Origin: Lingula anatina
Lineage: Eukaryota > Animalia > Brachiopoda
Assembly: GCA_051362555.1 (NCBI GenBank)
Contig: CM120643.1
Location: forward strand, 1,302,001-1,366,000
Length of the DNA stretch: 64,000 nucleotides
Direction: 5' to 3'
Below, one piece after another: positions 7,254-57,501 of the stretch. The notes beneath the pieces are model-generated. The model worked only from the letters and a program-made list of their open reading frames with translations. It was not told the DNA's origin and made no database searches. The translations under genes were made by a program, and so were the position numbers. The number at the start of each line of letters is the position of its first letter. Position 1 is the stretch's first letter.

Positions 7254-7836
7254 ATGGCAACAGCACAGATATTTCCATTTGAAATACCACGGAATGAAAA
7301 AGAAAATTATTTCCGCATGCACCTGCTCTTAGAGCATGCAACGGACGTGCTTCGAGATGTTCTCAGGACTCAGCTAAAAGCAGCTTATCCGGGACTGTTT
7401 GATCCCAGTAAAACTGACAAACTTTTTGACGTACTTGACAATCTACAAGTCAAACATACCTTACTGCTATTGAAAAATAGAAAGGTAAGAAACTCGAGTC
7501 AAATGAAACTCCTGTACCCCTCTGGCACCCCTTCAACAACTGTGACAACACAGGACTTAGATATTACACTTGCAGTTGTTTTATTAAGAAACATCACCAA
7601 TCTGAACCCTCATGCTAAATGGGAAAACCCACCAGCTTCCGACACCTCCATAGAGGCCAACATTGGGAGAGTGAAGACCTACCGCAATCAGCTCTCACAT
7701 GGACAGCGTCTTGGCATCACTGACACAGCATTTCAGGCAGAGTTTAATGCTCTCAAGCAAGTCCTGCTGTCACTGTCCCCAATATATACCAGTGATGATT
7801 ACGACAAGCTTCTTATTGTGCCCCTGGATGCTAAAG
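7254..7836 (+). CDS. DZIP3-like HEPN-domain exon, first coding exon of a HEPN-STAND-TPR gene
   Basis: Acceptor 'ttttcacag' at 7243, Kozak accATGG, motifs ENYFRMHLLL, QDLDITLAVVLLRNI, W..PP..DTS.EANIGRVK, HEPN RxxxxH (RNQLSH); phase-1 donor AAAG|gtaatc at 7836/7837. Confidence 0.8.
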
Positions 7837-8477
7837 GTAATCGAGCTTTGTAAAACAGCGTTTGGCGAGTAACAATAAAATATAAGAGTCAAAGGTAATT
7901 GATTTATAATGGTCAACATCAGCGTATACACACGTAATAATATTGGTTTGCAATTTGAAAAATTGTATTTTACCTAATTTTCTTTTACCCCTTTTCTTAA
8001 TATTATGCTTTAGTGAGCACATAGTGTTTATACACTGTAGTGCATTTTTGTTGGTCCGCCGTGAAGATATTTCTTAGAAAGAAATGTAAGCGTTTGTGAT
8101 ATTTTGAAGCTCTAGGTAGAACAACATAATTTAGTTTGCTTTACATGTTCGCCACCAAGTGCGTCATTTTTTTTTCGTTTGTCTGTCTGTCTGTTAGCAA
8201 CATCATGCACATTGTGGACTGCTTTTGATGAACTTTTGACAAACTGTTGGCAGTGGACCAAGTAACTAAATTGCTTGTGAACTTTTTGTTTATTAATTGG
8301 TTAGTTTTAATTACAAATTGAGAGGTGAGCTGCATTGGCTATCTATGCTCCTTCGGTTCGTTTTTAGTTTTTATTGACATCTTTTTATTGTGTAATTTTC
8401 TATCAACTATAAATAGTTATGTGAATTGTAGCATGTTTGTTATGATTGTGTTTATGGCATTCATTTAATATTTCCAC

Positions 8478-9260
8478 TTGCCCCATGCCAGCTCTTCTCT
8501 GTACATCTACCAAGAAAACTTCCTGACCTTAAAGGCCGCGAAGAATTGGTACAACTAATACAGCAGTATATTGCAGGTGAAACCCGAATTGTTCTTCTAA
8601 CGGGGATGGGGGGCATTGGTAAGACATCGGTGGCTATCGAGGTCGGACATCGCGAGGAAAATGCACTGTACATTGATATGAGACAAATCACCGACCTTGA
8701 AACTATCAAGTTATCTCTAGCCCAGCACTACCACCCAACACGACCCCTGAAAGATTTATACAGTGATTATCAAAATATACTCATACAAACTTTGTCTAGT
8801 TTAACTTCAGACACTGTTATCATTTTTGATAACAACGATGAGGTTATTAAGTCAAAATGGCAGGACTTTCACAGCTTGCTTCAGAATATTTTAAATTCAT
8901 CAAAGCATATTACTTTGTTGTGTACCAGCCGTGAATCATTCAGCCTCAGGTCGCATACCACGACTGTCATAGTCGTATCTCCCCTTGATAAGGCACCCTC
9001 CATTGATATCCTTTGGGAAGGAAAAACCGCCAGTCCCACTGTCAGTGAATCAATAGCCCTAGGTGAAATAGCAGAGAAGTGTGGGGGAAATCCACTCATA
9101 CTGAAATTATCATCAGCTCAACTCAAGCAAAAAAACTGCACAAGAAGTATTGGATAGGATGAACAAAAATAGCATTGAAGGCTGGGGTAAGTACGCAGAA
9201 GCAGCAACATATTATAAGAAATCTCTTGAAATCCAGAAATAAATTTTTGGTAAAAAGACC
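8478..9260 (+). pseudogene. Decayed NB-ARC (STAND) + TPR exon, paralog of 34954-37709
   Basis: Walker A GMGGIGKTS, Walker B IIFDNND, CGGNPL. Acceptor reads tttccAC instead of tttccAG; +1 frameshift in the A-run at ~9129-9135; then a jump to a single TPR unit (GKYAEAATYYKKSLEIQK*) and truncation by a repeat at ~9260. Confidence 0.85.
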
Positions 9261-9829
9261 CGGTGTGAGGGGAAGGGGATGGATGTCAGCCATAATATTG
9301 CAACGTGTGGTAATATCACATGTGAATGGAGTGCACTACGTTATTGGGTGAACAAAATTATTTTTATGTCGACAGGTTGCTGCAGGAATAAATACAACAA
9401 CATCCAAGGCATTTACTGGGACAGGGGTGAGAAATTTCTTTTTTGGGTTTTTGGTTTTCCTTGATTGCACAGAGGGGAGTTCACTGCCGGTGTGACAGGA
9501 ATAGAAGTCTAGGTTCCAAGTGATTTTTACTGGTTTTCTTTGCTCTGCCGGTGCGTTGTGTTAACTTGCCAACAGTGGTGTAATTTATTCACCCATGTGT
9601 GCTCATACATGTAAATTACAATGTATATATAAAACACTTGCATGTGTCAATCGACATGGTAATTTAGTGATTTGCAGGGCTACCACGACTGACAATTATG
9701 TACAGAGTTACTACTTAATTGGGAATATTATTTTTTACCAAGTAAATTTTCTACAAAATATTTATTTTTTCTCTTACTTTTTTTTAAAAATCCAAAACTG
9801 AGGTGTCACTCCATGTGTAGCCAAGTGTG

Positions 9830-10510
9830 TTACCTAATTACTGCACAACTCACGAAACAATTAATGCATTCAGTTGCATGTTCTGTGGTCAGAAATGTGA
9901 GGGGTGGTCTTTTTGGCAATTTCTGCCCTTGTATAAAAACGCATGGGTTTGGTGATGAGGCCAGATATGGACGGTAGATTCCGTGTCTGCCGAAGTGTAC
10001 GAGAGGCATAAAACGATGATTGTGCACTGCCTAGGATGGAAGCGGGGGGTGGTAACGTCTCTGTTTGGGGAGCATATCATGTCGGTGCCCAGGACCAGTT
10101 GTTTTTTCTAGGAGGCAACCTTAACCAGGATTCTTACAGAGACATTCTACAGAAAACAATGCTTCGATTGGTAAGAGTCATCTTCAGGAACAAATTTGTA
10201 TACCAAGACGACTGCGCAACCACATCGAGCTCGCAAAATCACTATTTTTCTTCAAAACCAATGGGTTCAGCAACTGCCCTGGCCTGCAAACTCTCCCGAT
10301 TTGAATCCAATTGAAAAACTTTGGGCAAAAGTAACTCACAGATTTAATAGCTATGGTCATCGGTCGGTAAATAGTGATGAACTGCGACAGGCAAATATCA
10401 CTGCGTGGAATTATATCCCCATCCAAACTCTAAAAAACGTGGCACAGGGTATGCCATGTAGGATGAGGGCGCTGCAAGCGGCTGCTGGAGGTCATACCCG
10501 TAATTACTGA
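9830..10510 (+). mobile_element. Tc1/mariner transposase remnant (frameshifted)
   Basis: GGGNVSVWGA, YQDD, PHRAR, WPANSPDLNPIEKLW and AAGGHTRY-like C-terminus, split over two frames. Confidence 0.9.
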
Positions 10511-10947
10511 CTTTTCATGATTAACTGTAGTGAGTTCTTTGACTGTGTAACATATCACTTTCTTTAATATCTTAACTTAAAGTTAATATTGACATCAAGC
10601 TGATGACATGGTTTTCTGGGGGTGTTCCTTTCTTTTGAATGGCATCTTATGTCAGATGTGATATTATTGACCAAAATATCTCACAACAGAAGACTGGATG
10701 TTTTTATCACTCAGTGACATACTTTTTTTGATGAATCAAGCCAAAGAATATTTAATCAGCACTCAAAAATAACAATGATAAAAAATATTCCATATTAAGT
10801 AGTAACCCTGTATGTCAACAAAATTTGGAGCTCATGACTGAATTGATAAGCTACCTCAGATAGTCGTTGAGTCTACGATTGGATGCTAAACTCCAAGTTA
10901 CATTATTTTACACGCCCCTTTTCAACCTGTATAATTACAGCAATATA

Positions 10948-11105
10948 TTGCAATCTGTTTATCTGCAGAGAAATTAAGAGATGTTCTTTTAGATAAGTAA
11001 TTAGTGTCATTTATGATATATATCCCTTGCAATCTGTTTATCTGCAGAGAAATTAAGAGATGTTCTTTTAGATAAGTAATTAGTGTCATTTATGATATAT
11101 ATCCC
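10948..11105. repeat. Perfect 79-bp tandem duplication inside a small palindromic element (~10927-11214)
   Basis: 10948-11026 equals 11027-11105; flanking inverted repeat attgcaatctgtttat / ataaacagattgcaat. Confidence 0.85.
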
Positions 11106-11550
11106 TGTGTAGTCAGCTCAGTATTATAAATAGAACTCAATTGATGTACTCTTGGCCTGCAGGCCTGAAATACAGTGAAATAAACAGATTGCAATATTAA
11201 TTGTATAATTACAGCATATAGCTATTGATACTTCAATTAACTCATTTTGATACCCGTCCCTGTCGTCCTGTGTAAATGTGAATGAAAATTATGTTCGACA
11301 GCAATATATGTCCTACAGCTGGGATGTCCTGGTGGGACAGTAGATCTAAAGCCCCCGTCACACTGCGCTTGCAACCTTTTGGCAACCTCTTTGCAACCTT
11401 AGTCGCAAGGAGGCTGCCTTAGGTTTAAAAGTGGTCGCATAAGGCTGCTAACAGGTCGCCTGCGATCGTTGACATACGAAGGCCATTTTTGTGTACCGAC
11501 AACCAGTGCGACTAACTATGAAAAGGCGCTCAGAGCTAATATTTCATTTC

Positions 11551-11700
11551 TGCACTGCCAGACCAGGTCCCTGCTTCAACCCCTTAGTGCTGATTGCCAA
11601 GCGGGGAGACCGCAGGTATCGTTTATAAAGGGCTGGTATGGCCCCGGACGGGCTTGAACCCGCGTCCTCCTGCTCCGGAGGCGGACACTCTAACCACGGT
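11551..11700 (-). mobile_element. tRNA-derived SINE fragment (Meta-type central domain)
   Basis: Minus strand shows A-box-like TGGTTAGAGTG and B-box GGGTTCAAGCC, then 'cataccagccctttataaacgatacctgcggtctccccgcttggcaatcagcactaagggg'. Confidence 0.7.
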
Positions 11701-11709
11701 TGGTCGTAA

Positions 11710-11830
11710 AGCCTAGGTCCCAACTACGTTTTGGGCGCACGGTTTTTATGTACCTTGCATCCGGCTAAGACGTAGCTAGATCGCACGTAACGTCTGTTAA
11801 TTATGTCGAAAAGTTACTACGTGCTGTTGC
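11710..11830. mobile_element. Left half of the AGCCTAGGTCCCAA MITE family (full copy at 50413-50744)
   Basis: Direct similarity to 50413-50530. Confidence 0.75.
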
Positions 11831-12044
11831 CTGTAGCAGTGTCATAAATTACCGGTATATTGAAACTGAGGGTCCAGTCCGTGTAACACAAAGTCCGCAC
11901 TCCATATAGTTATAACATTAAGGTTTAGTCTGATCATAGTGGATCAAAATCTAGGAAAAAGCTCACCTGTTCAAATGAATGGGAAGCGGACTCTCTGATA
12001 TGGGGGACTCTTTGTCACGTTACACCTGTTCTGTTTATTACCAG

Positions 12045-14084
12045 ATTTTAGAGCAAAGTTTGACCGCTTATGTGCCAGTGGTGCAGTCCCAGTTTACAGA
12101 CAGCGAGTAGCTATTGTTGGTCCCTACGGTGTGGGGAAGACTCATCTCGTCAAGCGCCTCCTTCAAGAGGAATATGACGAAGAAACAGACGCATATACAC
12201 CTGGTGTGAAGATATACCGCCATAGGTGCATCGTCCATAAAGACGGCCGATCTTGTTGGGTCAGAGGGAAAGGTAATGAGACTTAGAAAACATATTTGAC
12301 ACTAGTGTATTTGGGAAGGAAAGAACAGAATGGAGCAAAATTAGGGGCGCTGTACTTTTCCATAAGCTCTAAAGTGGTTAAGATTTTCCCACCACATTGG
12401 GCTGGAAGACGAGGGGGGTACCATCAGTGCATATTCATGTATGGCTATCAACAACTTTGCTGAAAAAGTGCTCGTTCAAAAGCTTTGTGGGTTTCTTGTC
12501 AATATTCAGACACCTGCGATCGTGACAGTTTCATTTTCCAAGATTCTTCATATTTTTGTAAACCTTCGTCTTGTATATTTTTCAAACCAGGCTCTAGGCC
12601 CTATGGCCCCTATAAGTCACACAGCTCCATAACCTGATGCATCTTGGGTTAGAAAATATCATGTCAATATGAATGTTCTTTTCACAATCCTCAGATGACC
12701 CAGAAGATCACCTGGTGCAACACATGGTAATTGGAATACAGAAACCAGACGCATTCCGCCGGGTAGACCAAGTGGACGAAAAGCCACCAGTGGAATCCCG
12801 AAAGGTGGAGAAGGTTATTTATAGCAACACTCGGGAGTCAGAAACAGGTACATGTTCCTCACTTACGGTTTTTTAATAGAACAGAAACAATAAATTATAT
12901 TTCTTTACTTTCCAAAAAAAAAAAAAAAAAATGCACACCTTTTTCACGACTGTGGTCCATCCATTTCGTAAGAGTCCACTTAATATCGTAATATCTGGGG
13001 AATGTATGAAACAGTATTCTTTGGTATAAGACAGTGCGGAATATGTTACGGCCAATGAAGTAGCAATTTCATTGTCACCACTCTTTCAGCAATCAATGGG
13101 AGCATTCACATCGAGATGAGTCAAGGTCTAATAAGGCCGCTACCTAAATATGGCGGACCTACATGTTAGGAAAACCACTTAATCCTGTAATGGTCTCCCC
13201 GCCTCTCACCCTCGGTTCCCCCACGCATCGTCCCTCGACAGGTTGAATTGAGCCGAGATTTAATTAGTGAGCCCCTTCAGGGACGACGCGCGGAGAGGCG
13301 TGTGAGAGATAGAGAGACCATTAACGAATTAAGCGGTTTCCCTTTCATGTAGGTCCGCCATATTAGGTAGCGATCTTACTAGACCTCGGTTCCTCTCGAT
13401 GTGAATTCTCCCAATGTTACCTAACTTAAATATACCGTAAACCACGTTCATAAGACCCTTCCAAATTAATCGTATTTATAGCAGAGACAGCCAGTTTCAA
13501 GAATTTCCATCCGGACCTTGTGCAAAAAATAGAGTCAGGTGCTCGTGGAGAACCTGTGGATCCTGAGAAACAGATTACAATTTGGGATTTTGGTGGTCAA
13601 GATGTTTACTACACCACTCACCAGACTTTCCTCTCAGAGCAGAACATCTACTTGTTGGTGTTCAGGCTTGACGTAGACCTCGATACCAAAATACCGGTAT
13701 ACAGAGGAGAGAAGACCGTGAAAGGTATGATGAAGATTACATTTAGATGCCTTTTTTTAGGTAACTGTGAAAGACCATGTTAGATGTTTTATCTGTAAGC
13801 ACTAATGCAAGTGCAACTATCCTTTAATTTGAATTGGAAACGCCGACCGTTCCTCTGTTTGCGCCTTCTGTTAATAATCAACAGAACTGGCCGTGTTATT
13901 TTTGTTGGGGAAATTGTGATAAACAGTCTTCTTTACCTTAATGTTTCTTTTACATTTTTCAGAGTTCATAGTGTATTGGTTGAACTCTATCCATATGCAC
14001 ACAGTTAGAAAATCAAAAGAAAACAAGAGCGTCATCCCACACGTTTTGATTATTGGAACTCATAAGGACAAATTGGCTTCAGAG
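12045..14084 (+). CDS. Roc (ROCO-family) GTPase domain, 4 exons: 12045-12272, 12695-12847, 13482-13724, 13963-14084
   Basis: P-loop VAIVGPYGVGKT, switch II TIWDFGGQDVYYTTHQTFLS, YLLVF, YWLNSI, G4-like IIGTHKD. GT-AG introns with compatible phases (1,1,1,0). No start exon or COR exon identified. Confidence 0.85.
13098..13412. mobile_element. Palindromic MITE in a Roc intron (related to ~985-1060 and 63500-64000)
   Basis: GGGAGCATTCACATCGAGA...TCTCGATGTGAATTCTCCC with long internal inverted arms; AAT on both flanks. Confidence 0.8.
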
Positions 14085-16389
14085 GTAATAAATCTGTTTT
14101 TTATTCAATTGTTCGATTCGTTTTATACCATACATCCCATCCGTACCACTGCACTCTTCATATTACGAGACATTGCGAGTCATTTAGACTTTTGGAGTGT
14201 ACACCTTGTATTTGCCCTAAGTATCAGAGCTTGTTCACTATTCATACATATTCATGGGGTACAGTGGTCGGAATAATTTTGTTTCCGTTGTACACCGGTG
14301 TAACAACGTTCGAAATATTTTAATCCCTATCTTGTGAATAGAAGGGGGCGGACAAACAATGGAGGGCCGTATAAATCCCTTCAAAATTCGAACGCACAAA
14401 CACAATAGCTTAGGTGGAATAACACAATACTTAATACGAGTGAACCCCATGACGCCGGTTTCTGTGGCCCAGCGCGAGCGTGACAATCCGCTGTAACTAG
14501 GTGTAATTAACAGCAGGATACATCAGCCAGAAGGTCCCTATTGTTTGATGCAGCGATAGGATTATAGCTTGAAGAGGCTAAACCCATGCTAAGGCGTGCC
14601 ACGCGAAGCGAACTGTCCTTTTGTTCACTAGTTTGGCACGCGCAGCTGGTTTTTAGTGTTGCTAACAAACTGCTAGTTAAATTTGTTATCAGTTATTTCA
14701 TCCTATATAAAATTTCCGCAGTCAAAAATTGAACTAATTATTGTTTGTTTGGTTGAAATGCATGAGCGTCAGCATCAATCTGTCTCAAAAAATTCCTATT
14801 GCATTAATTTATAAATGTATAATTTATTTATGTACTTACGTTTTAATTTGAAATATCTGCATTCAAGCTTTCAAGTATTTATAAAACATGAATGATAATG
14901 AAAGAGGAATAAGGAAATAACATATTACTTATATTATGCTTTTATTATAATATTGAAATTAAATGAGGTGCATTGACATAGGCGCAATGACAATCCAACT
15001 ACAACGTGCAACAGGGGGAAGTCTGGCTGTATGATCATACAATATACGAAAGTACGGTCAATTAAAAGTGAAAATCATCAGTTAAAGAGGAGGGGGTCTT
15101 ACTATAGCTCGCTATCTATTGTTAAACCCGACTGTTATTATCTCTCGAACAAGCTTAAAGCATGCCTATACAATTACTGTGTCTCCGGCTGCCGTTCAGA
15201 AACACCATGTCGAACATATTTTGCTATGTAGTGAGAAACATGGTACACTAGCGACTTGTTTTAGATCACTCAAGAAAGGATGCATACGTGCGACACCAGA
15301 GGAAAAACAATCAGGTATGCATCTGATCCATAAATAGTAATTGCACAGTACATGTACATGTTACTAGACCTTTGTCCTAACTCAGTAGTTAGGAATAGGA
15401 TGTTTGGATAAAAAGCTTCTATTCAACTCGCTTAGACCTAGGGCGTGATGCTATCATCCGATGAAACACGTAACTGAACCCTCTACCTGAACCTGAAGTC
15501 CCTTTATCTGAAACAAAAACTGTCCCTTGAACATGTCCATTTTTAATCGTCAAATGATTTGTGATTTCATTGAACGTCTTTGATCGAAAGCTTTCAAGTG
15601 ACAATAACCGAACCGTGTGTTGATTATTTATTAAAGCGTAATTAAGTTTATTCAACATGATCTATTTTGTAAACGATATTTGCCAAGATTGAGCTTGGAT
15701 TGATCACCGTCACTATTTAGCTACTCGCCTATAATGCGTGCTGAACGACAGACAACTTACAAATATTACCTGTGTAACTGTGCAAATGGACGCATTTAGT
15801 TAAATATAACGAAGCCGGTATTTAATCCATCGAACATATTTATATTTGTTCTTTTAAAACCAGTGTAAGGTTAACGCCAAATCAAAGCAAGCCTTGCAGA
15901 CTGGTTTTGTTTAAACTGTCGTGCATCAAGTAAAGCTAAGTAAAGCCTGTTTCTACTTCGCAGTGTTCATCCCAGCCATAAAACTGCATGAAGGATAACA
16001 AGACTCCGTAGACCTGTGCTTCAGGTTTCCAGTAGTCCCGTGTAACACAATAATATCGAAGGCCTGAGAGTAATACATATATGAAGCCGTGTATTAAAGA
16101 TTTAACAAATCAGAAATTCAAGAATTTAAACATGCTAGGTACATGCACATCACTTAATAAGTCATTTCACAAAAATCGCATCTAATTGTTTAGATTAACC
16201 TTTACTTTTATCGATCTCATCCCATTGTCTCAACTACCTAAAAGAAATATAGAGAACATGAGGAAAAGTAACACGTTTACATGCAGGCGAAGGAGTTATA
16301 CTTCAATATTAATCGCGAACAATATCAACAGCGACTAAAGACCGTTGCCTGTCTTTCACACTTTTACACAAACACACGAAGGTTTGATA

Positions 16390-18157: not shown

Positions 18158-18639
18158 TTATTTAATGTAATGTATTACTCATTACCCGTTTCATTTGACA
18201 CTCTCTCTTTTTATCTCCCTTCCCCTTTCTCTTGTTAGAAGGAGGGTAAATAATTAAGCACTCAAAATCTGCACCACCAATCTTCAGAAAAACATAAGTC
18301 AACGAACCGACACAGCAGAATGAATCAAATAACAGCTAGCACAAATTTATATGCAGTTAGCTATAGTGTCACTACATACATAATCAGCTGCACGCGCGAA
18401 GCTGTTGAACAAAAGGATAGTTCGCTACGGGAGACCGTTTGTTTACTTAAGTACTCTAAGGGGGCGTGGCTACCCAGGCGACCAGGGGATTAGGCTAGTT
18501 ACTTTATGCCGTCAACAATCGTTTAGCGACCCTATTATTATACACTCTCTCTATTGTATTTTCCACCGCATTAATCGCAGTGTAATCTTCAAATGGTCCC
18601 CGGGGTAAATGTACATATTCTTAATCCTAGTACGGTAGA

Positions 18640-18992: not shown

Positions 18993-19199
18993 CGAATTCA
19001 AGATGGCGACGGTATAGCACTCAAGCTGGGGCCACGGTGACAAAATTCTTAAATTATATATGATCGGTTGTAGTTGGACTGTGGCTGACTGTGTGAGGAT
19101 GAATATAAAGTGAAATGACAGCGGAAAAGGGCTGGATTCCCGGTACTGTGACGATAAAAGTGATTTTTTCGTGCGTTTAAAAATCGCGCCAATGAAACA

Positions 19200-20432
19200 A
19201 TGAAAAGGGGAAGACAAAGGACTTCCCATAGTTCATCATCCAGTACAGAAAACACACCGTTGGCCAAACTCCACATCAAAGAGAGCAATATGGATAAAAG
19301 CTCAAGGAAAAAAGAGGGCGACAAATATCTCATTACAGACAATACCGAAATCAGGGACATTATCAGTGATTGTTTGGCAAAATTCGAAGATAAATTGGAC
19401 GCCATTACAAAAACCTTTAAAGATTCTCTCAAACAAGTTGAGATTTCGGTTAAAAGTCTCGATGAAAATATGACCCAACTGGACGAGAAAGTAAGTGCTC
19501 TTGAAACTGAGAACAATGTGCTAAGAGAACAACTCAATGTTAGCGAGCAGAGAGTACAAAGCCTACAAAGACAAGTCGATACGGATCACCAGATAATAAT
19601 AAATCTACAAACGAGATCCATGAGAGATAACCTACTATTTCATAACATTCCCGAGACTGGACCGCAGGAAAACGTGGAGAATACACTGAGGCAGGTGCTG
19701 ATTCAACAGATGAAGATCCCCGCGGAAGAAAACGTGTCTTTTGATAGGGTTCATCGCATTGGATCGGTAACTAACGGACCCAAACCGCGGACAATAATAG
19801 CAAAATGTACGACATTCCATGACAAAAGAACTGTTATGAAATATACCAAAAATCTAAAGGGGACCTACATAAGGATAACTGACCAGTATCCCAAGGAGGT
19901 GGAAGAAAGAAGAAGAACGCTTTATCCCGTCATGAAAGAGTTAAGGGCAAAAAATATCAAACACAGGTTAGTGGGCGAAAAACTCTATGTAAATAACTCC
20001 TTATATACCCCAGATGATCGCAGGCCCGATAACTCTCTAAAAAACCTACCAACACATAGGAAAAACCATCGACATGAAATAAAGTTCTCTGAAAAGAAAA
20101 CTAAAGCAAAGGGTAACTCCTTTACGGGAATCTCTACAAGAGTGAATTCAGTCGAAGACGCACAATCTGCGCTTGCCTCCATTATAGCAGGCGGCCAAGT
20201 AAGCGGAGCCTTGCTTGTTTACGCCTACAGAATAAAAAGTGGCGGTGCCTGGACAGTATATTACAATGACAATAACGATGTAAGTGTAGCCAAAACACTG
20301 GCCAACCTCCTAGAAGCCAAGAGGGTAGAAAATAGATTGATTGTAGTGTCAAGGGTGGTTGGACAGCACTTAAATTCAGAGAGATTCAGTTATTACCAAG
20401 AGTCCGCAATTGACGCTCTCCAACTAGATTAG
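19200..20432 (+). CDS. LINE ORF1p (coiled coil + RRM + CTD) with C-terminal IMPACT/UPF0029-like domain
   Basis: 410 aa: heptad region, SMRDNLLFHNIPE, FDRVHRIG, PRTIIAK, ITDQYPKEVEERRR, then GNSFTG..VNSVEDA..YAYRI..NDNND..LLE..ENRLIVVSR..GQHL..ERF. Confidence 0.85.
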   Translation: MKRGRQRTSHSSSSSTENTPLAKLHIKESNMDKSSRKKEGDKYLITDNTEIRDIISDCLAKFEDKLDAITKTFKDSLKQVEISVKSLDENMTQLDEKVSALETENNVLREQLNVSEQRVQSLQRQVDTDHQIIINLQTRSMRDNLLFHNIPETGPQENVENTLRQVLIQQMKIPAEENVSFDRVHRIGSVTNGPKPRTIIAKCTTFHDKRTVMKYTKNLKGTYIRITDQYPKEVEERRRTLYPVMKELRAKNIKHRLVGEKLYVNNSLYTPDDRRPDNSLKNLPTHRKNHRHEIKFSEKKTKAKGNSFTGISTRVNSVEDAQSALASIIAGGQVSGALLVYAYRIKSGGAWTVYYNDNNDVSVAKTLANLLEAKRVENRLIVVSRVVGQHLNSERFSYYQESAIDALQLD

Positions 20433-21514
20433 ATCGTGTGGGCTAGGTTAGTTTGTTTGATAAGATGTAAACATATATATATATATATATATAGTCAAAT
20501 GCCTGTGTGGGTGTACAGATGTACAGATTATCTGTGTCTCGGTAGTGTACTTGATAGTAATAATTATATATATAGTTTTGAGTTATTGATCATATATTTT
20601 TATAATACAGGTATTCACGAGGCGTCTTGCTGATGTGGGCACCGGATGACCACACACACTCGTTTCTCGAGATACGGTATGCTGTTATACATGTGGTACT
20701 ACTAGCTAAGCTATTGACAATACAAGCAAATATAAGATGTATTCAACAATGCTCATTTTTCAATGTCGGTGGTACGCTGCGAATACAAGGGGACATCGTA
20801 GCTATTGGGAGTATTTGGCTACGATTATGTGCACATTGCTCAATATATATTGCTTAATAGGCAGTGACGGGGAACTAAACTCCTATTATTATTCGCTCAT
20901 GTCACAAACACAAAAAGGGCCCCTAGGTGTCCCAGCCGACATGTGTAAAATAGAACATACCGATATTTTACAGTTTGTAACAACAATACAATCACCGTGT
21001 CTGTGCACGTGACCGATGGCTAGTTGATGTATGCAAGCGTCGTGAGTGTTACCGCTGCCTTGTCTTTTCTAGGACTTGTGATACGTCCTAGGTATTTTGT
21101 AGTGATGACTCGTGTATTGTGGATATGTGTGTGTGTGAATGTATGTGTTAGTGTGTATGTCAAAATGGACAGTTTACAGCTCATGTTTTTCTGTGTAAGT
21201 GAAAGGGAGTACCTAGCAAGTGTAAGTGCGAGAGTTTCTAAGGGTACGCCCTTACCTCGAATAAGCTGTTGTACTACAGTATAAGATAGCCTACAATGAC
21301 AAATTATGTTAATTTTAATTTTTCTCTTATACTTGTCCACTAGTATAATTAATGTGTACTTATTGCATTATATTTGTATGTTGATGATAGGTGGAGCTAT
21401 TTGGAAGAACGGTGCCAATCTGGTGGTGGTAAAAAGTTGTTTCGAGGTAAGAGCGATGAAAAACAAAATAAGGGAAAAAGCTAACCTCGACATTTATTAG
21501 AGCCGTATTTTCAA

Positions 21515-24500: not shown

Positions 24501-25285
24501 TAAGGGACTTTATAAAAGACACTAAAACAATTACCTTTTTTTCACAAGAAGAAATAAATAAGCGATATGGCATTCAGACCAACTTCCTAGAATATCAAGG
24601 GGTGGTAAGCATTATTAAGCGATACTTGAAATTGCATAATATAAACGAATCTGAAGTAATGCTCCCTAAACTCCCAGAGTATTTAAGTATCTTCTTTAAA
24701 AGTAAGAAGGGCTGCCAAGATTTTTATAAAATACTTAGTAAGAATGCTTCTATTTCAAAGGGCAAAATAAATTGGAATAAATTGTTTGATATTAATGACA
24801 AAGAGTGGTCTCTAATAAATAAACTGCCTTTCAACCTTCCTATCAGTCCTAAATTTAAATGGTTCCAGTATAAAATAAATCAACATATATTACCGACAAA
24901 TAGTTATCTTGCAAAAACTGGTTTAGTTAACACCCCCCTTTGTAAAAGGTGCGAGAAAGAGACGGAGACAATTATTCATGTACTATGGGATTGTTCTGTA
25001 ACTGAAACCTTTTTAAATGTAATCAAAGACAAGCTGAATATGACTTTAGAGAAAAAAACATTTATATTTGGAATTCTTGACAAAAATGAAAATAATAAAG
25101 ATTCGTATAATGTCCTAAATATGTTAATCAAATACTATATCTACAGCTTTAGGTGCAGAAACAAACAATTATTACTTATTTCTTTTGTTGAATTTGCTAA
25201 AAAATATCTGGACTCGGTACAGAATTTGGACCACCTTAAGGCCATGTACGTTTGCTTGCACAATTTAATACTTAGACTTGCTTAG
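21515..25285 (+). CDS. LINE ORF2p: APE endonuclease + reverse transcriptase + C-terminal CCHC
   Basis: 1256 aa uninterrupted: SVNCQGL, LQDTH, GDFN, SDH; KSPGSDG, WRPISLL, DFEKAFD, GCRQGDP, YADD; CKRCEKETETIIHVLWDC. Confidence 0.97.
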   Translation: MTNCIKIVSVNCQGLGDRQKRKDIFSYLRQQKYDILCLQDTHFTSEVESRVGSEWGYKAYFSSYRSNSRGVAILLNNTADVKVISEKKDDAGNFLLLNCLLEDRKVTLINIYGPNLDSPDFYKQIELALQDTDNEYSIICGDFNLVLNPEIDYDQTYRQINNPKARKKVLELIEIYDLVDVYREQHEYYKRYTWRRKNPIKQARLDFFLVTENLVRSIKNSYIESSYRSDHSIVGINIEFNPFRKGKGLWKFNNSLLDDLEYIDNIKQLINNIKIQYALPVYNLNNISSIPDSDIQFTVNDQLFLETLLMEIRGKTISVSSYKKKLVDDREKKLITEISNLERNCNLNANNIERLQEELKYIRENKMRGSMIRSRTKWLEEGEKPTEYFLNLENRNFTSKIIPKIVKDNGEEITTQTLILKEIKCYYEQLFAESNEVIDVDLSTILPHNYPLRLTDVESSELEGIISLNEASQILKKMKSNKSPGSDGFTVEFFKVFWSQLGNFVVRSINWGYSTGQLSITQRQSVITCLPKGEKPKQYLKNWRPISLLNVTYKIASGVIASRVKKYLGKLISDDQCGFISGRYIGESIRTVYDIMQYTEDNDIPGMLVLLDFEKAFDAVSWKFIDRVLVFFNFGESIIKWINIFNKGAQAAINQGGNLSESFYIERGCRQGDPIAPYLFILCAEILSIILKNNKNIKSITIDDAPILLTQYADDTTVMLDGSEKSLSELMIELEKFSKISGLKINKDKTKIVWIGRMKFSNLKFLPHMHLDWGKHQFNLLGIEFHVNLFQIPKLNFDKKLVKIKSILNGWNRRMITPIGKCIIIKSLIISQLNHLFISLPNPSQRFINDLQSDLFHFLWNSKIDKVKRDIIIKNYDEGGIKMTHLPSLISSLKLTWIRRIYTKRKKWQIIVAKYLNFELLSVGGNEYLNKCLKVCRNRFWGDVLLAWKELRVKEDKLRGKNKPVLDTPVWYNEALKVDSKVIYYKHWFNKGISTIRDFIKDTKTITFFSQEEINKRYGIQTNFLEYQGVVSIIKRYLKLHNINESEVMLPKLPEYLSIFFKSKKGCQDFYKILSKNASISKGKINWNKLFDINDKEWSLINKLPFNLPISPKFKWFQYKINQHILPTNSYLAKTGLVNTPLCKRCEKETETIIHVLWDCSVTETFLNVIKDKLNMTLEKKTFIFGILDKNENNKDSYNVLNMLIKYYIYSFRCRNKQLLLISFVEFAKKYLDSVQNLDHLKAMYVCLHNLILRLA

Positions 25286-25462
25286 AATGATACAATACGT
25301 GTCGAGTGTAAATGTATGACAATCTCTTACTGTTTGGAGTCATAACCAATTGTGCATGTCTAATATCTTTGCGTACCTAAGTTCACATCTCGATAGTCTG
25401 TACTGTCAGTCTTTTGTGTTGCATCAGATTGTTCATGGATACTTGTTATATGTTGGTTTGTA

Positions 25463-25950: not shown

Positions 25951-26110
25951 GTGTATTGTATACTATTACTTTTGTTATTTTGTGCAACGTATTCTGTCAC
26001 TCCCTTGTGCTGTTAATGTCCAATAAGACTACTGTATGCTAGTTTGTCTGTTGCATATATGTTGTAATATGTGTTTAGTGTGAAAATGTATGTTTTGTTT
26101 TGTGATGTCA

Positions 26111-26200
<90 letters not shown>

Positions 26201-26202
<2 letters not shown>

Positions 26203-27678
26203 CGAGTTCAAACCTCGGCAACATATATTCCCGGCAAGCAGCCGCCTCAGATACTGGTGCAGAAGATAGACATCAAGGGGCCCAGTTTCCAGAGGGTCGA
26301 CTTGCCTCAAATATCGCACTTCAAGATGGCGGAACAGGACAAGGAACGTCTGCGGGGCCTTCTTTTCACCACATCCACCGCGCAGTGCCCTGATGACGTC
26401 ACATTCCCGACATCTCCGGTTGGATGGCTTGTACAGGAGAGCACGGATCACCATCTGAAGGTCAGTGAGGGTCAGTGTTTTTACCCTCCCGTCACAATCC
26501 CCATCCCCAGTAGAGGCGATAAGGTGATTGTTTTGCTAGATAAGGGGCGAAATTGTTCATCGGCCGATGACGGAGAGATTTTTGGAGGGGTTTATGACAC
26601 GAAGAGTTGTCGTTTGGACAGTGTCACATTTATCGCAACCGGAGTCACGCGCAGAAGCAGCGTTGTAGGAATCAGTAACACCACCGCGGGGACATCTAGC
26701 GTCATTATCGCTGGCAGTGCAGAGAACAACGGGCCAACTCAGGGGTGTGTCAGGACAATTTCTATACAAACTATCCAAAGCAAAGAAAGTGGCAAGGAGC
26801 TATCAGTGGCCTTCGCTGTGTCCAAACCGACTTACTTTGATAAAATGTCTCTTGTTCAGGGACTACCATTCAACTCAACCCCGTCTCAATCCTGCATTTT
26901 CCTAACTCTAGACAGGGAATTCGGCAAACTGGGGTTTTCAGACCAAAGAAAAACAATGCTGGATATCAAGAAATCAGAAGGAGTATCACTTGACGTCCTT
27001 GAAGGCCTGGACATTCCAGACGGGGACAGGTTCCCCGTGGCGATATCTCCTGACGACAAATACGTCGCCGTCATAGGAGAAAAGCGGGAAAGGAATCAAA
27101 AATCCAGCATCGTGTTACTGACATTCGAAAAGAATGCTGATGGTTTCGTTCTCTGTGACTACAGGGTCCTCGTGTCAAGGGCGAGCACGTTAAAGCCAAC
27201 AGACGACTTCCCTACCCGTCACTGTGTGCTGGAGTTCAGCAAGGATTCCAAGTTGTTAGCTGTGAGCGCCGTTCGTGAGGCAGACCGCCGCCACTGCTTG
27301 ATCCTGATTGACCCACAGGATGGCCATGATGGCCAGTGTCTGGAACATGGGAAGGAAGAGGCTATACTTGGAGGAGCGTGGGTTGGCGAAGACTTCTGGA
27401 CTGTCCATCAAGCTGTTAAAGAAGACGGTCAAATAATACCTGTAGGTCCGACAAAACTGAGAAAATGGCTCTCGCCAGCTGCAGGAGGCAGTCAGCACAC
27501 GCCCGATATAGAACTTCAGGACTGTGATAGCGGACTGAAACTGGCGGATATGTTTTCACAAATCAAAGTAGCAGACGACGGGAAGATAGCTGCCATCACG
27601 TGTACTACTGTGGAAGGAAACGGAATCCATGTTGTGTCCATTCATAGCAATGGCAAGAAGACTGAGAATGAACAATAG
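26201..27678 (+). CDS. Large terminal exon encoding a WD40/YVTN-like beta-propeller; 5' part cut off by the LINE poly(A)
   Basis: About 490 open codons from the poly(A) junction, GC-richer than flanks; blade-like motifs VAISPDDKYVAV, LEFSKDSKLLAV, KVADDGKIAA; AATAAA at ~27865. First internal Met at 26326. Confidence 0.65.
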
Positions 27679-29539: not shown

Positions 29540-29877
29540 AGGGATAATAACTCTTCGTTTTGGCCAAAAAATGAATTTTCCTGGAGTAAACAACAATTTT
29601 CCCATACTTACCAATGGTTTATGAATCCATTTTTACATTCAAAGTTAGTCCCTGTTTTTTTCTAAAAAGTTTGTTTTTTTTTTGTTAAAATCTCTTTAGA
29701 GGTTATAACAGAGTATAGCCATCAATGGAGGTCACGTGGTCTGAAGACAAGCTCAGATATAAAAATAATATCTATAACTGCTGTTTTTGTCGTAAACAGA
29801 ATATATTATATTTCTATGAGTTATTCACAATGTTTTTATTGTGAAATATAGACCTCATGCGAAGAGTTTTTATCCCT
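29540..29877. mobile_element. Kolobok-like MITE (TTAA TSD)
   Basis: TTAA|AGGGATAATAACTCTTCG...CGAAGAGTTTTTATCCCT|TTAA; close copy at 48327-48663 and decayed copies at ~33265-33560 and ~5850-5965. Confidence 0.85.
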
Positions 29878-32800: not shown

Positions 32801-33619
32801 ACATAACTCCATTGATTACATCATTTTGTTCTCAAAATTCTGTCGAAAACAACATAACATCAATTTTGTATACAGATAAAATATGATTTTACAAACATGT
32901 ACATCATAGGATTGTAGACATAATGTCATATATTTATATACATGTTATTCAATTCATAGGGGTTTGAATGAGTTATGCTGTTACTAGATATATAATCGCA
33001 TTCTCCCCTTTTTTAACTACATGTTATGAAAACAAGACAGGCTAAACATATCAGCATTTGGGGCCATATTGGACACAAATGATATCAGCTGTTAAATAAT
33101 ACTGTATCTGGTGTATATATTACAACAGCTAAACTTGAAAAAAAAAACTGTGTTTAAGTCAACAAATATGGAAAAGTAACTAAAATCTACTTGCAGCGGA
33201 TAAATATTAATTGATATAAAAGGATAACAACAGTTCATTTTGGCAAAAAAAGCTGGTGTTAACAGCAATTTTACCATACTTACTAATAGTTAATGAATCC
33301 ATTTCTAAAACTTAGTCCGTTTTTTTTTGTCTAAAGATTTTGTTTTTCTTATAATATCTCTGAAGAGATCTCTTAAGAAATTATTACACAGTATAGGCAT
33401 CTATGGAGGTCACGTAGTCCAATGACAAGCAAAGTGTGCAGATTAATTGCTATAACTGCCGTTTTTGTGGTAAAATAAAAGATATTATATTATATGTCTA
33501 GGAGTTGTTTGCAATGTATTTACTATGAAATAAAGATTACACATGAATAGTTGTTATACATTTAATTTTAGTTAATCGTTTCTAAAGCTACTGACGAATG
33601 AAACAATATTTGTTTATTG

Positions 33620-33810
33620 GAAACACATAGCAAATGTTCAACTTTAAGAATAATAAAACTAAGGGATAAATCACATAGCAAGTGTACAACCTTAAAAATG
33701 ATAATAAAACTAAGGGATAAATCACATAGCAAGTGTTCAACCTTAAAAATGATAATAACACTAAGGGATAAATCACATAGCAAGTGTTCAACATTAAAAA
33801 TGATAATAAT
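33620..33810. repeat. 51-bp minisatellite, about 4 units
   Basis: Repeated 'aaatcacatagcaagtgttcaaccttaaaaatgataataaaactaagggat'. Confidence 0.9.
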
Positions 33811-34953
33811 ACGAAGAAATGAATCATGAAGCAAATTTTCAACCTTATTAATAATTTACTTAACAGTGAGGGAAAAAATCCTGGATTCAGGATAACAGCA
33901 AGAAGGAAAGCCATGGAATGAATATACTGTTTCTATAGTGCTCCGGAACACGGGTGAGTTAATTGTTTTGTTGAGCAATGTGCAGTGTTGAGGGGGGGTT
34001 GTCTTGGAGGGAGAAGGGAAGTCCCACTGACCTTTAATCTGTATCTGCCTGTGAAGTGACCTTTTCAAATATTAGAGCCCAGTAATTCAGAAACAAGCAA
34101 TTTCTTTTTGACGAATTCGGAGCCTGTACAATATATATATATATGATCTTATGATCTGCTTACATACAAAAACTAAGCTACTGCTACGTTAACTATTTTA
34201 TCGCTTTACAACCCTCCCACTATCAAAATAAAACGTTTCCTCGAGATGTTTAATTTAAACACATTTGTAATTAAGTGAAGACAATCTCCACCACACAGAT
34301 GAGGATGAATGTGATGTTGCAGTTTTGACCAATTTTGTCAATTTATAAGAAGTCACAGCTATATAAGAAGGTTACAGTAAGTTAGGAAAAACGGAACGCC
34401 TCTATATAAACTTGAAAGTCTAATCTTGGGGAGATAGCATATGTAATAGATATGTGGATGTAGTGCAGGTATGAAGGGGAAAGTATCTGCAAGTCTTGGG
34501 ATATATACAAGCCAAACAATAATTAAAAAAAAAAGTAAAAACGCAAGTCTTTGCTTTTACCATTGTCATTGGCTCAGTGATATTATTTGGGTGGACATAA
34601 ATTGTTATTTCCAGACAGAACGCATGGTGTTTGGTGCAAATCTGACTGGCCAGTGATGCAGAGATGAAGACCTAAGGAAAGCTACAAGTTATTTTTGTCT
34701 CAATTTGAGTTCAGATGAGATATCTGATAATCTTAGAATCATACAAATAATGTTTTGCATGCTGACAAAGTTCAAAATGTGGGACAGGGATAACAGGTAC
34801 AAACTAATTGAAAATTGACTCAAGCATGGCAAACACTGATTAAAATAATATCTCATCTATCACTTCATCCATAATGTATTGGTGCATATCACAGTAGTGA
34901 TACAAATTATTGCCACCATTCACTTGGAAACAAAAGTTGGACCTTCCATGTTT

Positions 34954-37709
34954 CTAAAAATTGTAATGGAGCTTAAAATCCCAACCAATAAAACTCAAGA
35001 ATCGACCAGCCTGACCATATTTTCCCTTGACAATCAATTCAGTGGCAATGTATTTGCTCATATTCATGATTACTTTTCTTAATACGCATCTTTTTGCATC
35101 ACGTACTAAACTATCAAGACGTCTGGTTTTTGAATGCATGGGACCAAAATGCTCTACAAAGACTTTACGAGATTTCTCATAATAAGTAAGTGCCTCAGCG
35201 TATTTACCCATGACACATAGTACACTGCCAATATTCTGGTATGCCGTAGCAGTATCAGTGTGTTTCTCACCAAGTATTTCTTTCTGGATTTCTAGAGATT
35301 TCTCAAAATATGTAAGTGCCTCTGCATACTTACCCATGGCATATAGTGCACTGCCAATATTAATGTATGCCGCAGAAGTATGAGGGTGTTTCTCACGAAA
35401 GATTTCTTTCGTAATTTTAATAGAATTCTCATAATTCGTAAGTGCCTCAGAGTACTTACCCATGTCACGTAGTATATTGCCAATGCTCTGGTATGTCACA
35501 GCAGTATCAGGGTGTTTCTCACCAAGGATTTCTAGCTGCATGTCTAGAGATTTCTCCAAATATGTAAGTGCCTCTGCGTACCTACCCATGTCACCTAGTG
35601 CATTGCCATAATTCTGGTACGCCTTGGCAGTATGAGGGTGTTTCTCAGCAAGTATTTCTTTCTGTTTTGTAATGTATTTCTCATAATTTGTAAGTGCCTC
35701 TGCGTATCTTTCCATTTTACATAGTACATTGCCAATATTAATGTATGTCCCTGCAGTATCAGGGTGGTTCTCACCAAGTACTTCTTTCCTGATTTCAAGA
35801 GATTTATCATGATATTTGAGTGCCTCTACGTACTCACCCATGCCACGTAGTGTATTGCCAATATCCTGGTATGTAACAGCAGTATAAGGCTGTTTCTCAC
35901 TAAGAGTTTCTTTCTGGATTTCTAGAGATTTCGTATGATATTTAAGCGCCTCTGCATACTTACCCATGTGATATAGTGCATTGCCAATGTTCTGGTATGT
36001 CACAGCAGTATTATGGTGTTTCTCACCAAGGATTTCTTTCATGATTCCAAGAGATTTCTCATAATTTGTAAGTGCCTTAGAGTACATACCCATGCCACTT
36101 AGTACATTGCCAATGCTCTGGTATATAACGGCAGTATCAGCGTGTCTCTCACCAATGGTTTCTTTCTGGATTTCTAGAGATTTCTCATAATATGTAAGCG
36201 CCTTTGCATACTTACCCAAGTGATATAGTTCATTGCCAATATTTTGGTATGCCCCTGCAGTATTACGGTGTTTCTCACCAAAGATTTCTTTCATGATTCC
36301 CGGAGATTTCTTATAGTGTGTAAGTGCCTCTGAGTACTTACCCATGTGACTTAGTACATTGCCAATACTCTGGTAGGTAACAGCAGTATTAGGGTGTTTC
36401 TCACCAAGTATTTTTTTTTCAACTTCAAGAGATTTCTCATAATATGGTAATGCCTCTGCATACAAGAAAACGTTTTGAAATACACGTGCAATTAAAAACA
36501 GATTTTTTGATTTTAAAATTGTTATTTTTTTATCATGAAGTTTTTTGTTGCTAAGTTGTTCAGATAGCAAACAAGCTATAGCCTTCAGGTGTGGTAGTAT
36601 TTTTAGGGCTTTTTCATATGTTTCCTTGGACGAAAGGGTATCAAATTCGGATACCAGAAGAGGTGTTTGCTTCATGTAATGTTTACAGTACGCTTCTTGT
36701 ATGTGTTCTATTTCATTTTGATGATTCTTTGCTTGAAACGCTGCATACGCTCTCAATAAGGGGTGAAGATCATAAAAACTAAGATCTGGACTAAGAAGGG
36801 ATTTGTTGCAAAGACTGTCAAGGATAGATTCACATTCATCCTCATCTATTTCTAGCATTTCTGAAACTTCTTCCACATGAAATGAAACTGGGAACATATG
36901 TAAAGCTCGAAATAATTTCTGTTCTTCAGTATTCAGTGTTTCATAAGACATATCCAGGCATGACATCATTTCTTGAGACGCTGGAAGATTTGCCACCTTA
37001 AGGCTTTCAATAACATTTTTGTTTTTCATCCTATCTAATACTCTCTGTGCAGTTTTCTGCTCGAGTTGAACTGCTAATAATTTCAATGCAAGGGGGTTCC
37101 CCCCGCATTTCTTTGCAATTTCACCTAACACTAATGACTCACTATCAGTGGGACTAGGGTTTTTTCCTTCCCAAAGGATATCAATGGAGGGTGCCTTATC
37201 AAGGGGGGGTACATCTACAACAGTCATGTTATGTGACACAAGACTGAATGCTTCACGACTGGTACACAACAAAGTGACATGCTTTGTTGAATTCAAAATG
37301 GTTTGCACCAACTTATGAAATTCTTGCAAATTGGACTTTATTACCTCATCATTGTTATCAAAAATAAAAACAGTGCCTGAAGACAAACTAGACAAAGTTT
37401 GTATGAACATATTTTGAAAGTCACTGTATAAATCTTCCAGGGATCGTGTTGGGTGGTAGTGCTGTACCAGAGATAACTTGACAGATTCAAGGTTGGTGAC
37501 TTGTCTCATATCAATATAAAGTACATATTGTTCACGATGCCCGACTTCGATAGCCACCGATGTCTTCCCAATGCCCCCCATCCCAGTTAGAAGAACAAGT
37601 CGGGTTTCACCTGCAATATACTGCTGTATTCGTTGCACCAAGTCTTCACGACCTTTAAGGTCAACAAGTGTTCCTGGTAGCTGTACTGAGAGGAGCTGAC
37701 ACGGGACAG
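34954..37709 (-). CDS. STAND NTPase (NB-ARC type) + 11 x 42-aa TPR repeats, NLR-like receptor, large terminal exon
   Basis: Intact ~918-codon exon after acceptor 'ttttgatttttccag|ct' (phase 1): GMGGIGKTS, VFIFDNND, CTSRE, CGGNPLAL, LDMSY, YDLHPLL, then repeats of HPxTAxxYxxIGNxLxxMGKYxEALxxYEKSLEIxKxILGE. Confidence 0.92.
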
Positions 37710-57270: not shown

Positions 57271-57425
57271 TCCCAGCAGGCAAAATATGTTGTTTTAACG
57301 TTGAAACAATGTTGAACCATAACGTTGAGAAGACATTGAATGTTGGATTTGAAAGTTGTGTCAACCTCAGATAACAACGTTGTATCAACGTCAGAAAACA
57401 ATGTTATATTAACCCCACCCAGTGG
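57271..57425. mobile_element. Small CCCAG...TGGG-ended element with AACGTTG subrepeats in the foldback spacer
   Basis: cccagcaggcaaaatatgttg...cccagtggg with repeated aacgttg motifs. Confidence 0.4.
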
Positions 57426-57501
57426 GAAAAAAACCTGGATATGTTTAGCAGTAGGACGTTTTTGATGGCTAAATATATGTAGGGTATAAATGTATGGCCT
57501 T

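What the first reader, a model, noticed from the sequence alone, without database searches (positions are those of the whole stretch)
7254..37709. Animal NLR-like gene family with HEPN RNase - NB-ARC - TPR architecture
Seen: the HEPN exon (7254-7836) keeps the RxxxxH motif (RNQLSH) and ends in phase 1, about 640 bp before an NB-ARC exon that starts in phase 1. The intact paralogous NB-ARC + 11 TPR exon (34954-37709) also starts in phase 1, so the family splices as HEPN-STAND-TPR. Known: RxxxxH is the catalytic motif of HEPN ribonucleases, which act as dimers; effector-STAND-TPR proteins are pattern-recognition receptors in bacteria (Avs-type) and fungi (NLR-like). Inference: this may be an invertebrate receptor whose ligand-triggered oligomerisation activates an RNase rather than a death-fold signal. 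I know of no functional characterisation of that in animals.
Basis: partly seen in the sequence, partly recalled or inferred. Interest (0 to 1): 0.78.

Follow-up and report, generated by a model that had tools for sequence, protein, structure and literature searches.

The report
RNase exon switching between immune sensors
This lamp-shell (brachiopod) DNA holds pieces of a gene family that joins a likely RNA-cutting head to an immune-receptor-type ATPase and repeat tail, a layout already listed for corals, but here the ATPase exon next to the head is broken and the head was likely taken over by a neighbouring GTP-switch (Roc) gene.

Summary
The family is real, but no complete member lies in this window. 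The HEPN exon (7254-7836) is a DZIP3-like HEPN with RNxxxH. Eleven Lingula anatina proteins join it to NB-ARC and TPRs, and RNA reads from paralogs show that splice. The NB-ARC 641 bp downstream is a remnant: AC instead of AG at the acceptor, a frameshift and a deletion. The HEPN exon joins in frame to four Roc GTPase exons at 12045-14084, matching the RefSeq HEPN-Roc-COR protein XP_013395173 at 434 of 442 residues. COR exons are absent from the window, and no read showed the HEPN-Roc junction. The minus-strand NB-ARC-TPR exon is intact but has no HEPN exon in the window. HEPN-NB-ARC-TPR is already tabulated for corals (PMC10236652), and the RNase idea is in print; my searches found no functional test. 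This scan noted both layouts before on other DNA, in this genome and others. Likely mechanism: TPR ligand binding drives oligomerisation and HEPN RNA cleavage (untested). Verdict: new member of a known kind, with a likely exon-capture event as the local extra.

The parts
7244..7836 (+). HEPN exon (ATG at 7254, 194 codons, phase-1 donor); DZIP3/hRUL138-like HEPN, RNxxxH at 7683-7700
   Evidence: 194/194 identical to the N-terminus of XP_013395173 and 185/194 to the HEPN-NB-ARC-TPR protein P0002
7837..8477 (+). Intron of the ancestral HEPN-NB-ARC-TPR gene; ends GT..AC in this copy
8478..9260 (+). Decayed NB-ARC-TPR exon remnant: no AG acceptor, frameshift at 9129-9135, stop 9155-9157, deletion junction near 9182 into one TPR, stop 9240-9242
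   Evidence: Pfam NB-ARC E=3.4e-8; only 76-81% identical to intact close paralogs
12045..12272 (+). Roc exon with the P-loop (G1); AG..GT, phase 1-1
   Evidence: 75/75 identical to XP_013395173
12695..12847 (+). Roc insert exon, phase 1-1
   Evidence: 3 differences from XP_013395173
13485..13724 (+). Roc exon with the G3 motif (DFGGQ), phase 1-1; alternative acceptor at 13482 matches isoform X1
   Evidence: 4 differences
13963..14084 (+). Last Roc exon found in the window; no COR exon follows up to 64000
   Evidence: 1 difference
34954..37709 (-). Intact NB-ARC + winged-helix + 10-11 TPR exon (phase-1 AG acceptor, 917 codons); its HEPN exon is not in the window
37739..40338 (.). Repeat-like stretch that begins 30 nt upstream of the minus-strand acceptor and replaces the expected intron; inverted copy at 56524-60692
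   Evidence: 81-96% identity per 250-column block over the part aligned

Best explanation
The window holds an intact HEPN exon, a broken NB-ARC remnant behind it, four in-frame Roc GTPase exons and a headless intact NB-ARC-TPR exon, all from a brachiopod family of likely immune receptors whose HEPN head is predicted to cut RNA, and the HEPN exon here was likely captured by the Roc gene. Family mechanism: (1) two coding exons splice at phase 1 into HEPN-NB-ARC-TPR (shown for paralogs by RNA reads and gene models); (2) the variable face of the TPR helices binds an intruder or damage ligand (inferred from variability); (3) NB-ARC exchanges ADP for ATP and oligomerises (inferred from STAND biology; motifs intact); (4) clustered HEPN domains pair, form a composite RxxxxH site and degrade RNA, stopping translation or killing the cell (inferred from HEPN biology, recalled; untested). 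Local history: a HEPN-NB-ARC-TPR copy came to lie upstream of a Roc gene and lost its second exon; its phase-1 donor fits the phase-1 acceptor of the first Roc exon, giving HEPN-Roc(-COR). Exon compatibility and the gene model are shown; transcription of this copy is not.
For: Family: 11 of 16 HEPN hits are HEPN-NB-ARC-TPR, 10 of those 11 keep RNxxxH. RNA: joint 7836>8478 in 3 reads of X7 and 1 of X9, plus 4 loose-end reads in X9 that continue into an NB-ARC start. Walker A, Walker B, GxP-like and MHD-like motifs are present in the minus exon and most paralogs. In 62 pooled repeats the most variable positions include 8, 11, 15, 18 and 19, a helical periodicity, around invariant scaffold residues. 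Rx4-5H is kept in 139 of 158 homologous domains that cover the motif. The AlphaFold model (pLDDT 92.6) has the HEPN nuclease Csm6 as best structural match (Z 7.2, rmsd 3.7, 116 aligned). Capture: the five exons give an open 442-residue frame, 434 identical to XP_013395173. This HEPN is sister to that of HEPN-NB-ARC-TPR P0002 (support 96/91) and only 27-31% identical to the C-terminal HEPNs of two other Lingula Roc-COR proteins; one clade for all three is rejected, p-AU 0.011. The HEPN is 87-95% identical to four close paralogs while the remnant is 76-81% (intact pairs 83-90%), so the head was kept while the ATPase decayed. Another Lingula Roc protein has NHL repeats at the same junction.
Against: No read showed the HEPN-Roc junction or any Roc-Roc junction at 92% likeness in 4 runs (low depth, 6-30% of each run read, 111 loose-end rows hidden), and 0 of 406 reads laid on HEPN plus remnant were 99% or more alike (18 loose-end rows hidden), so this copy may be silent. 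COR exons are missing from the window. Differences from XP_013395173 are uneven (0 of 270, then 8 of 172; Fisher p=0.0005), so the RefSeq protein may come from another allele or copy, and it is itself a gene model. The structural match is weak for a helical bundle (Z under 8; no Foldseek E<=0.001). No ligand, oligomer or RNase activity was tested; overall pN/pS among the window's repeats is below 1 (0.22/0.25).
Confidence: 0.55

Rival explanations
1. Everything on the plus strand is debris of segmental duplication in an immune gene cluster: a partial copy of a HEPN-(NB-ARC)-Roc-COR gene that is functional elsewhere, with this copy truncated after Roc and not expressed.
For: No COR exon in the 50 kb after 14084; a LINE at 19164-25285 and frameshifted caspase remnants at 31895-29086 nearby; no read at 99% or more; unchecked scan notes place related chimeras 63 and 137 kb beyond the window.
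Against: All five exons keep GT-AG sites and an open frame with intact G1 and G3 motifs, and the HEPN has a short branch while the remnant has a long one (0.015 against 0.21). A recent duplication would look the same, so this rival is compatible with the capture itself.
Confidence: 0.3
2. The family is a receptor, but HEPN works as an RNA-binding or pairing module (sensor or scaffold) rather than as a released nuclease.
For: PMC8662601 (passages) allows RNA sensor as well as RNase; one paralog lacks the His (P0012) and 19 of 158 homologues lack the motif; non-catalytic HEPN folds (Roquin, sacsin, MtlR-type) are also among the structural rows.
Against: R, N and H are kept in 151/162, 152/162 and 146/160 domains, and HEPN sits in the effector position on many unrelated switches (NACHT, NB-ARC, Roc-COR, RIG-I-like helicase, IIGP GTPase).
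Confidence: 0.12
3. One reading: the HEPN at 7254 and the NB-ARC at 8478 are one working gene, and the AC is an assembly error or a rare allele.
For: Paralog reads map as a 7836>8478 joint; the frame is open for 420 residues through that site; dN/dS against the minus exon is 0.26.
Against: Three further independent lesions (frameshift, deletion into a TPR, stops); the joined reads differ from the window's letters and none is 99% alike.
Confidence: 0.03

Closest known systems
Coral DZIP3-like HEPN / NB-ARC / TPR proteins (PMC10236652, additional files 16-17; orthogroup OG0000193)
   Same: Same three domains in the same order; 8 of the first 32 of 323 HEPN rows of additional file 17 have this layout.
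   Different: Different phylum; I did not test orthology with the coral genes. The Lingula NB-ARC found no coral hit among 70 hits (word-limited search), so the layout may be convergent. No function is reported in the passages read.
Bivalve, cnidarian and amphioxus HEPN-NACHT NLR-like proteins (PMC9646362, PMC8260672, PMC8662601, bioRxiv 10.1101/2025.07.21.665930; passages)
   Same: Same Pfam HEPN family at the N-terminus with Rx4-6H (194 of 202 in pearl oyster); same RNase hypothesis; clustered, copy-variable genes.
   Different: NACHT rather than NB-ARC; LRR or WD40 more often than TPR.
Lingula anatina XP_013395172/3 (LOC106162424), HEPN-Roc-COR gene model
   Same: 434 of 442 residues over the five exons; same first junction.
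   Different: Continues into COR (residues 444-885), which is not in the window; unannotated as to function.
Bacterial Avs / STAND-TPR pattern receptors (PMC13581612, passages) and AP-GTPase(Roc)-COR conflict proteins (PMC8195603, passages)
   Same: Effector-switch-repeat logic with enzymatic effectors; mostly TPR sensors in bacterial STANDs.
   Different: Only 22-42% local identity to bacterial STAND proteins, which mostly carry HTH heads; no ligand or oligomer shown here; spliced animal genes.
HEPN ribonucleases Csm6, AbiF, Cas13, Swt1
   Same: Best structural rows for the model (Csm6 Z 7.2; Swt1 5.8; AbiF 5.4; Cas13 5.1) and the Rx4-6H motif.
   Different: No sequence match to any solved chain; activation here would be by a fused switch, not cyclic oligoadenylate or guide RNA (recalled).

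Membership tests
DZIP3/hRUL138-like HEPN (PF18738) | Profile score above the curated cut-off | tested here: met
   115 bits against 27, E=2.7e-33
DZIP3/hRUL138-like HEPN (PF18738) | Rx4-6H motif with polar residue after R | tested here: met
   RNQLSH, residues 144-149
HEPN ribonucleases | HEPN helical fold | tested here: inconclusive
   All-helical model, motif at the end of helix 133-149; best row Csm6 Z 7.2, rmsd 3.7, 116 aligned, below the level that separates helical bundles
HEPN ribonucleases | Dimer with composite active site and RNA cleavage | not testable with these tools
   Needs biochemistry
HEPN-NB-ARC-TPR NLR-like receptors (family level) | HEPN, NB-ARC and TPRs in one polypeptide and transcript | tested here: met
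   11 Lingula proteins; spliced paralog reads
HEPN-NB-ARC-TPR NLR-like receptors (family level) | Intact STAND motifs (Walker A, Walker B, GxP-like, MHD-like) | tested here: met
   Minus exon and most paralogs; P0008 has a broken Walker A
HEPN-NB-ARC-TPR NLR-like receptors (family level) | Ligand-triggered oligomerisation | not testable with these tools
   No ligand known
HEPN-NB-ARC-TPR (plus-strand locus 7254-9260) | Usable acceptor and intact NB-ARC-TPR exon | tested here: not met
   AC acceptor, frameshift, deletion, stops
HEPN-NB-ARC-TPR (minus-strand locus 34954-37709) | Upstream HEPN exon | tested here: inconclusive
   None within 37710-64000; sequence beyond the window is not held
Canonical NLR (NACHT + LRR) | NACHT domain and C-terminal LRRs | tested here: not met
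   NB-ARC passes its cut-off, NACHT does not (16.6 against 26.7 bits in the remnant); repeats are TPR
ROCO (Roc-COR) proteins | Roc GTPase with G1 and G3 motifs | tested here: met
   Motifs in the window's exons; Pfam Roc E=3.5e-17 was scored on XP_013395173, not on the window's pieces
ROCO (Roc-COR) proteins | COR in tandem after Roc | tested here: not met
   Absent from the window; present in XP_013395173 (COR-A E=3.4e-21); may lie beyond 64000
Bacterial Avs | Belongs to an Avs STAND clade and senses a phage protein | not tested
   No tree with Avs sequences was built

The most novel reading that the evidence does not exclude
The locus is a snapshot of effector swapping in an animal immune system: a catalytically active RNase exon, recently the head of a STAND-TPR receptor, was spliced onto an LRRK2-type Roc(-COR) GTPase while the old ATPase exon decayed inside the new first intron, making a GTP-switched RNase. 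In Lingula the same HEPN clade also heads a RIG-I-like helicase, an interferon-inducible-type GTPase, CARD-NACHT and caspase proteins, so brachiopods would run a bacterial-style, mix-and-match system of direct RNA-destroying effectors.
Probability: 0.35. Interest if true: 0.6.

Novelty: new member of a known kind. Interest (0 to 1): 0.33.

Why it matters
HEPN is among the commonest N-terminal domains of invertebrate NLR-like proteins (PMC8260672, passages), yet my searches found no test of its activity. If these receptors cut RNA directly, animals would share with bacteria a single-protein sense-and-destroy defence that needs no death-fold signalling. The Lingula family is compact (two coding exons, an intact motif) and easy to test. 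The local structure shows how such heads can move between switches through a shared phase-1 junction.

Tried and rejected
No whole genome is held, so sequence beyond the window could not be searched. No RNA holder was listed; only same-species raw-read runs. Laying 4 runs on 6600-15000 at 92% gave 5 joints, none at an exon boundary: uninformative at that depth. HEPN homodimer prediction (residues 8-190, two copies) gave no verdict, score 0.00, alignment not used: no evidence either way. Sequence search of solved structures gave no real match; Foldseek gave none at E<=0.001. I first took 56524-60692 for a third gene copy; rejected, since no NB-ARC follows it and it does not match the plus-strand intron. 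I considered the HEPN exon a symmetric phase 1-1 module; rejected, since its acceptor is 10 nt before the ATG. Scan look-ups by place (near) and by sequence returned nothing. Paper searches: HEPN+DZIP3+NLR (6 listed of 8), HEPN+Lingula (5 of 5), HEPN+invertebrate+RNase+NLR+STAND (2 of 3), HEPN+Roco+COR (3 of 4), 'DZIP3-like HEPN' (2 of 4), HEPN+NLR+ribonuclease+metazoan+toxicity+oligomerization (1 of 1), brachiopod+NLR+NB-ARC+Lingula (1 of 1), HEPN+exon shuffling+NACHT (0), HEPN+Avs+tetratricopeptide+STAND+animal (1 of 3). In the listings and passages seen, none reports an activity test of an animal DZIP3-like HEPN receptor or a HEPN-Roc-COR protein. Gerdol et al. 2018 on Lingula immunity was seen only as a reference and may list these genes.
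Full report
Observation. The HEPN exon is as described: ATG at 7254, GT donor after 7836, phase 1, RNQLSH, Pfam HEPN_DZIP3 E=2.7e-33. The minus-strand exon 37709-34954 has an AG acceptor, phase 1, an open frame, NB-ARC and 10 whole 42-residue TPRs plus a lead-in. The plus-strand NB-ARC at 8478 is 83% identical in DNA to it but has AC where the paralog has AG, an extra A at 9129-9135, a stop at 9155-9157, and a jump near 9182 from paralog base 707 into a TPR (at least about 540 bases lost), with homology ending near 9260. A six-frame profile scan found no second HEPN in the window. So no complete HEPN-NB-ARC-TPR gene lies here. No whole genome is held.

Source and family. The HEPN's best hits are Lingula anatina records, one identical over 194 of 194 residues, so the DNA is from this brachiopod or a very close relative. 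Of 16 hits among 341-2000-residue proteins, 11 are HEPN-NB-ARC-TPR, 1 HEPN-Roc-COR, 1 HEPN plus RIG-I-like helicase, 1 with a weak DED and C-terminal HEPN, and 2 clam HEPN-NACHT. Ten of the 11 keep RNxxxH. Searching with the minus exon's first 400 residues gave 70 hits: 12 Lingula (11 with HEPN, one partial) and 58 weak hits, bacterial where named. None was identical to the window's exon (best 87%). The junction residue pattern is the same across the family.

RNA. Four runs laid on 7170-9170 at 82% likeness gave 406 reads, 0 at 99% or more and 21 at 95-99%. The one joint listed is 7836>8478 (3 reads in X7, 1 in X9), with ends GT..AC on this DNA; 4 more reads in X9 run from 7836 into an NB-ARC start that differs from the window's letters. 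These are paralog transcripts: they confirm the family splice, not this copy. Four runs laid on 6600-15000 at 92% showed no exon joint; depth on the exons was about 0-4 and only 6-30% of each run was read. Hidden rows: 18 and 111 loose ends.

What the HEPN exon joins here. The identical record, XP_013395173, is HEPN-Roc-COR. Its next four exons lie at 12045-12272, 12695-12847, 13485-13724 and 13963-14084, all AG..GT and starting in phase 1; with the HEPN exon they give an open frame of 442 residues with 8 differences, none in the first 270. Residues 444-885 (COR) are not in the window. Among the 8 Lingula Roc/COR proteins, the others carry a C-terminal caspase (2), a C-terminal HEPN (2), a C-terminal Death domain (1), N-terminal NHL repeats (1) or no further Pfam domain (1). 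The two C-terminal HEPNs are 27-31% identical to ours. In a 26-row tree our HEPN is sister to that of HEPN-NB-ARC-TPR P0002 (96/91), and one clade of the three Lingula Roc-linked HEPNs is rejected (p-AU 0.011; the group was named after a first tree was seen, and long branches are present). The HEPN is 87-95% identical to four close paralogs while the remnant is 76-81%, against 83-90% among intact pairs. The simplest reading (inference) is capture of the head exon of a STAND-TPR gene by a Roc gene. Whether this copy is complete or expressed is open; the uneven differences from the RefSeq protein (p=0.0005) allow another allele or copy.

Mechanism. A profile of 7 HEPNs found 2034 cluster representatives at E<=0.001. 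Among the best 150, 139 of 158 domains covering the motif keep Rx4H or Rx5H. I scanned 52 of the 150 with Pfam (mostly the longer ones): partners include NACHT or other STAND domains, TPR, LRR, WD40, ankyrin, NHL/B-box, CARD, caspase, IIGP GTPase, kinase with RNase L domain and Roc-COR; the Roc-COR case is from scallop and 23.5% identical to the Lingula protein. The AlphaFold model is confident (pLDDT 92.6); its best structural row is Csm6 (Z 7.2), with Swt1, AbiF, Cas13, Roquin and sacsin further down, all below a decisive score. STAND motifs are intact in the minus exon. TPR variability concentrates at positions 8, 11, 15, 18, 19 and 37 of 62 pooled repeats picked by a strict pattern; overall pN/pS among the window's 10 repeats is 0.22/0.25, and repeats are not independent. 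From recalled knowledge of STAND and HEPN proteins I infer ligand binding, oligomerisation, HEPN pairing and RNA cleavage. None of these steps was tested.

What is known. PMC10236652 (passages; supplement searches, files 13-17 of the tool's list not searched) lists DZIP3-like HEPN, NB-ARC, TPR genes in Acropora digitifera: 8 of the first 32 of 323 HEPN rows. PMC3710099 (one table passage) lists DZIP3-like HEPN fused to TPR, NACHT, CARD, Death and LRR in animals. PMC9646362 (passages) reports over 50 HEPN-NACHT genes, Rx4-6H in 194 of 202 proteins and proposes RNA degradation. PMC8662601 (passages) finds HEPN-NLRs in nine invertebrate taxa and calls for tests. PMC8260672, PMC9334734, PMC6321704, PMC8195603, PMC11463336, PMC13581612 and bioRxiv 2025.07.21.665930 were read as passages. 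Nine searches (listed under Tried and rejected) found no activity test and no HEPN-Roc-COR description; the library lacks most subscription papers, including Gerdol et al. 2018, and bioRxiv supplements are closed.

Earlier notes of this scan. My reading was fixed before the look-up. Notes report HEPN-NB-ARC-TPR on another piece of this genome and in other genomes, and HEPN-Roc-COR-caspase and HEPN-NB-ARC-Roc-COR-caspase genes 63 and 137 kb beyond this window. I checked only the papers they named, not their loci.

Verdict. The family claim stands but is a known architecture; the local gene reading is wrong; the local extra is a likely exon capture of uncertain expression. New member of a known kind, interest 0.33.

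Noticed in passing
window 19164-20432 and 21485-25285 (+): Apparently intact LINE: ORF1-like 422-residue frame and a 1266-residue endonuclease-reverse transcriptase-zinc finger frame.
   Followed up: partly
window 26068-27678 (+): A long A run followed by an open frame of about 490 residues with no Pfam hit at E<=0.001; unexplained.
   Followed up: partly
window 31895-31703, 31214-31131, about 29150-29086 (-): Caspase exon remnants, 63-68% identical in the two clearer pieces to the C-terminal caspase of the Lingula Roc-COR-caspase P0077, with a frameshift in a G run.
   Followed up: partly
window 37739-40338 and 56524-60692: Inverted pair of AT-rich stretches that both end at the same 12-base G/C motif; likely a transposon family or the long arms of one 23-kb element; no target-site duplication seen.
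   Followed up: partly
window about 11520-11700 (+): Short repeat that draws thousands of 90-95%-alike RNA reads in run X1; likely a SINE-like element transcribed from other copies.
   Followed up: no
window 44728-47059 (+) and 53620-54449 (-): Broken frames that look like a non-LTR retroelement and an integrase-like element (by eye); palindromes at 43596-44315 and 13094-13416.
   Followed up: no
   Followed up: partly
P0163 (XP_033763247) and P0201 (XP_046857780): Scallop HEPN-HEPN-Roc-COR and soft-coral HEPN-kinase-RNase L-like proteins: further fusions of the same HEPN family.
   Followed up: no
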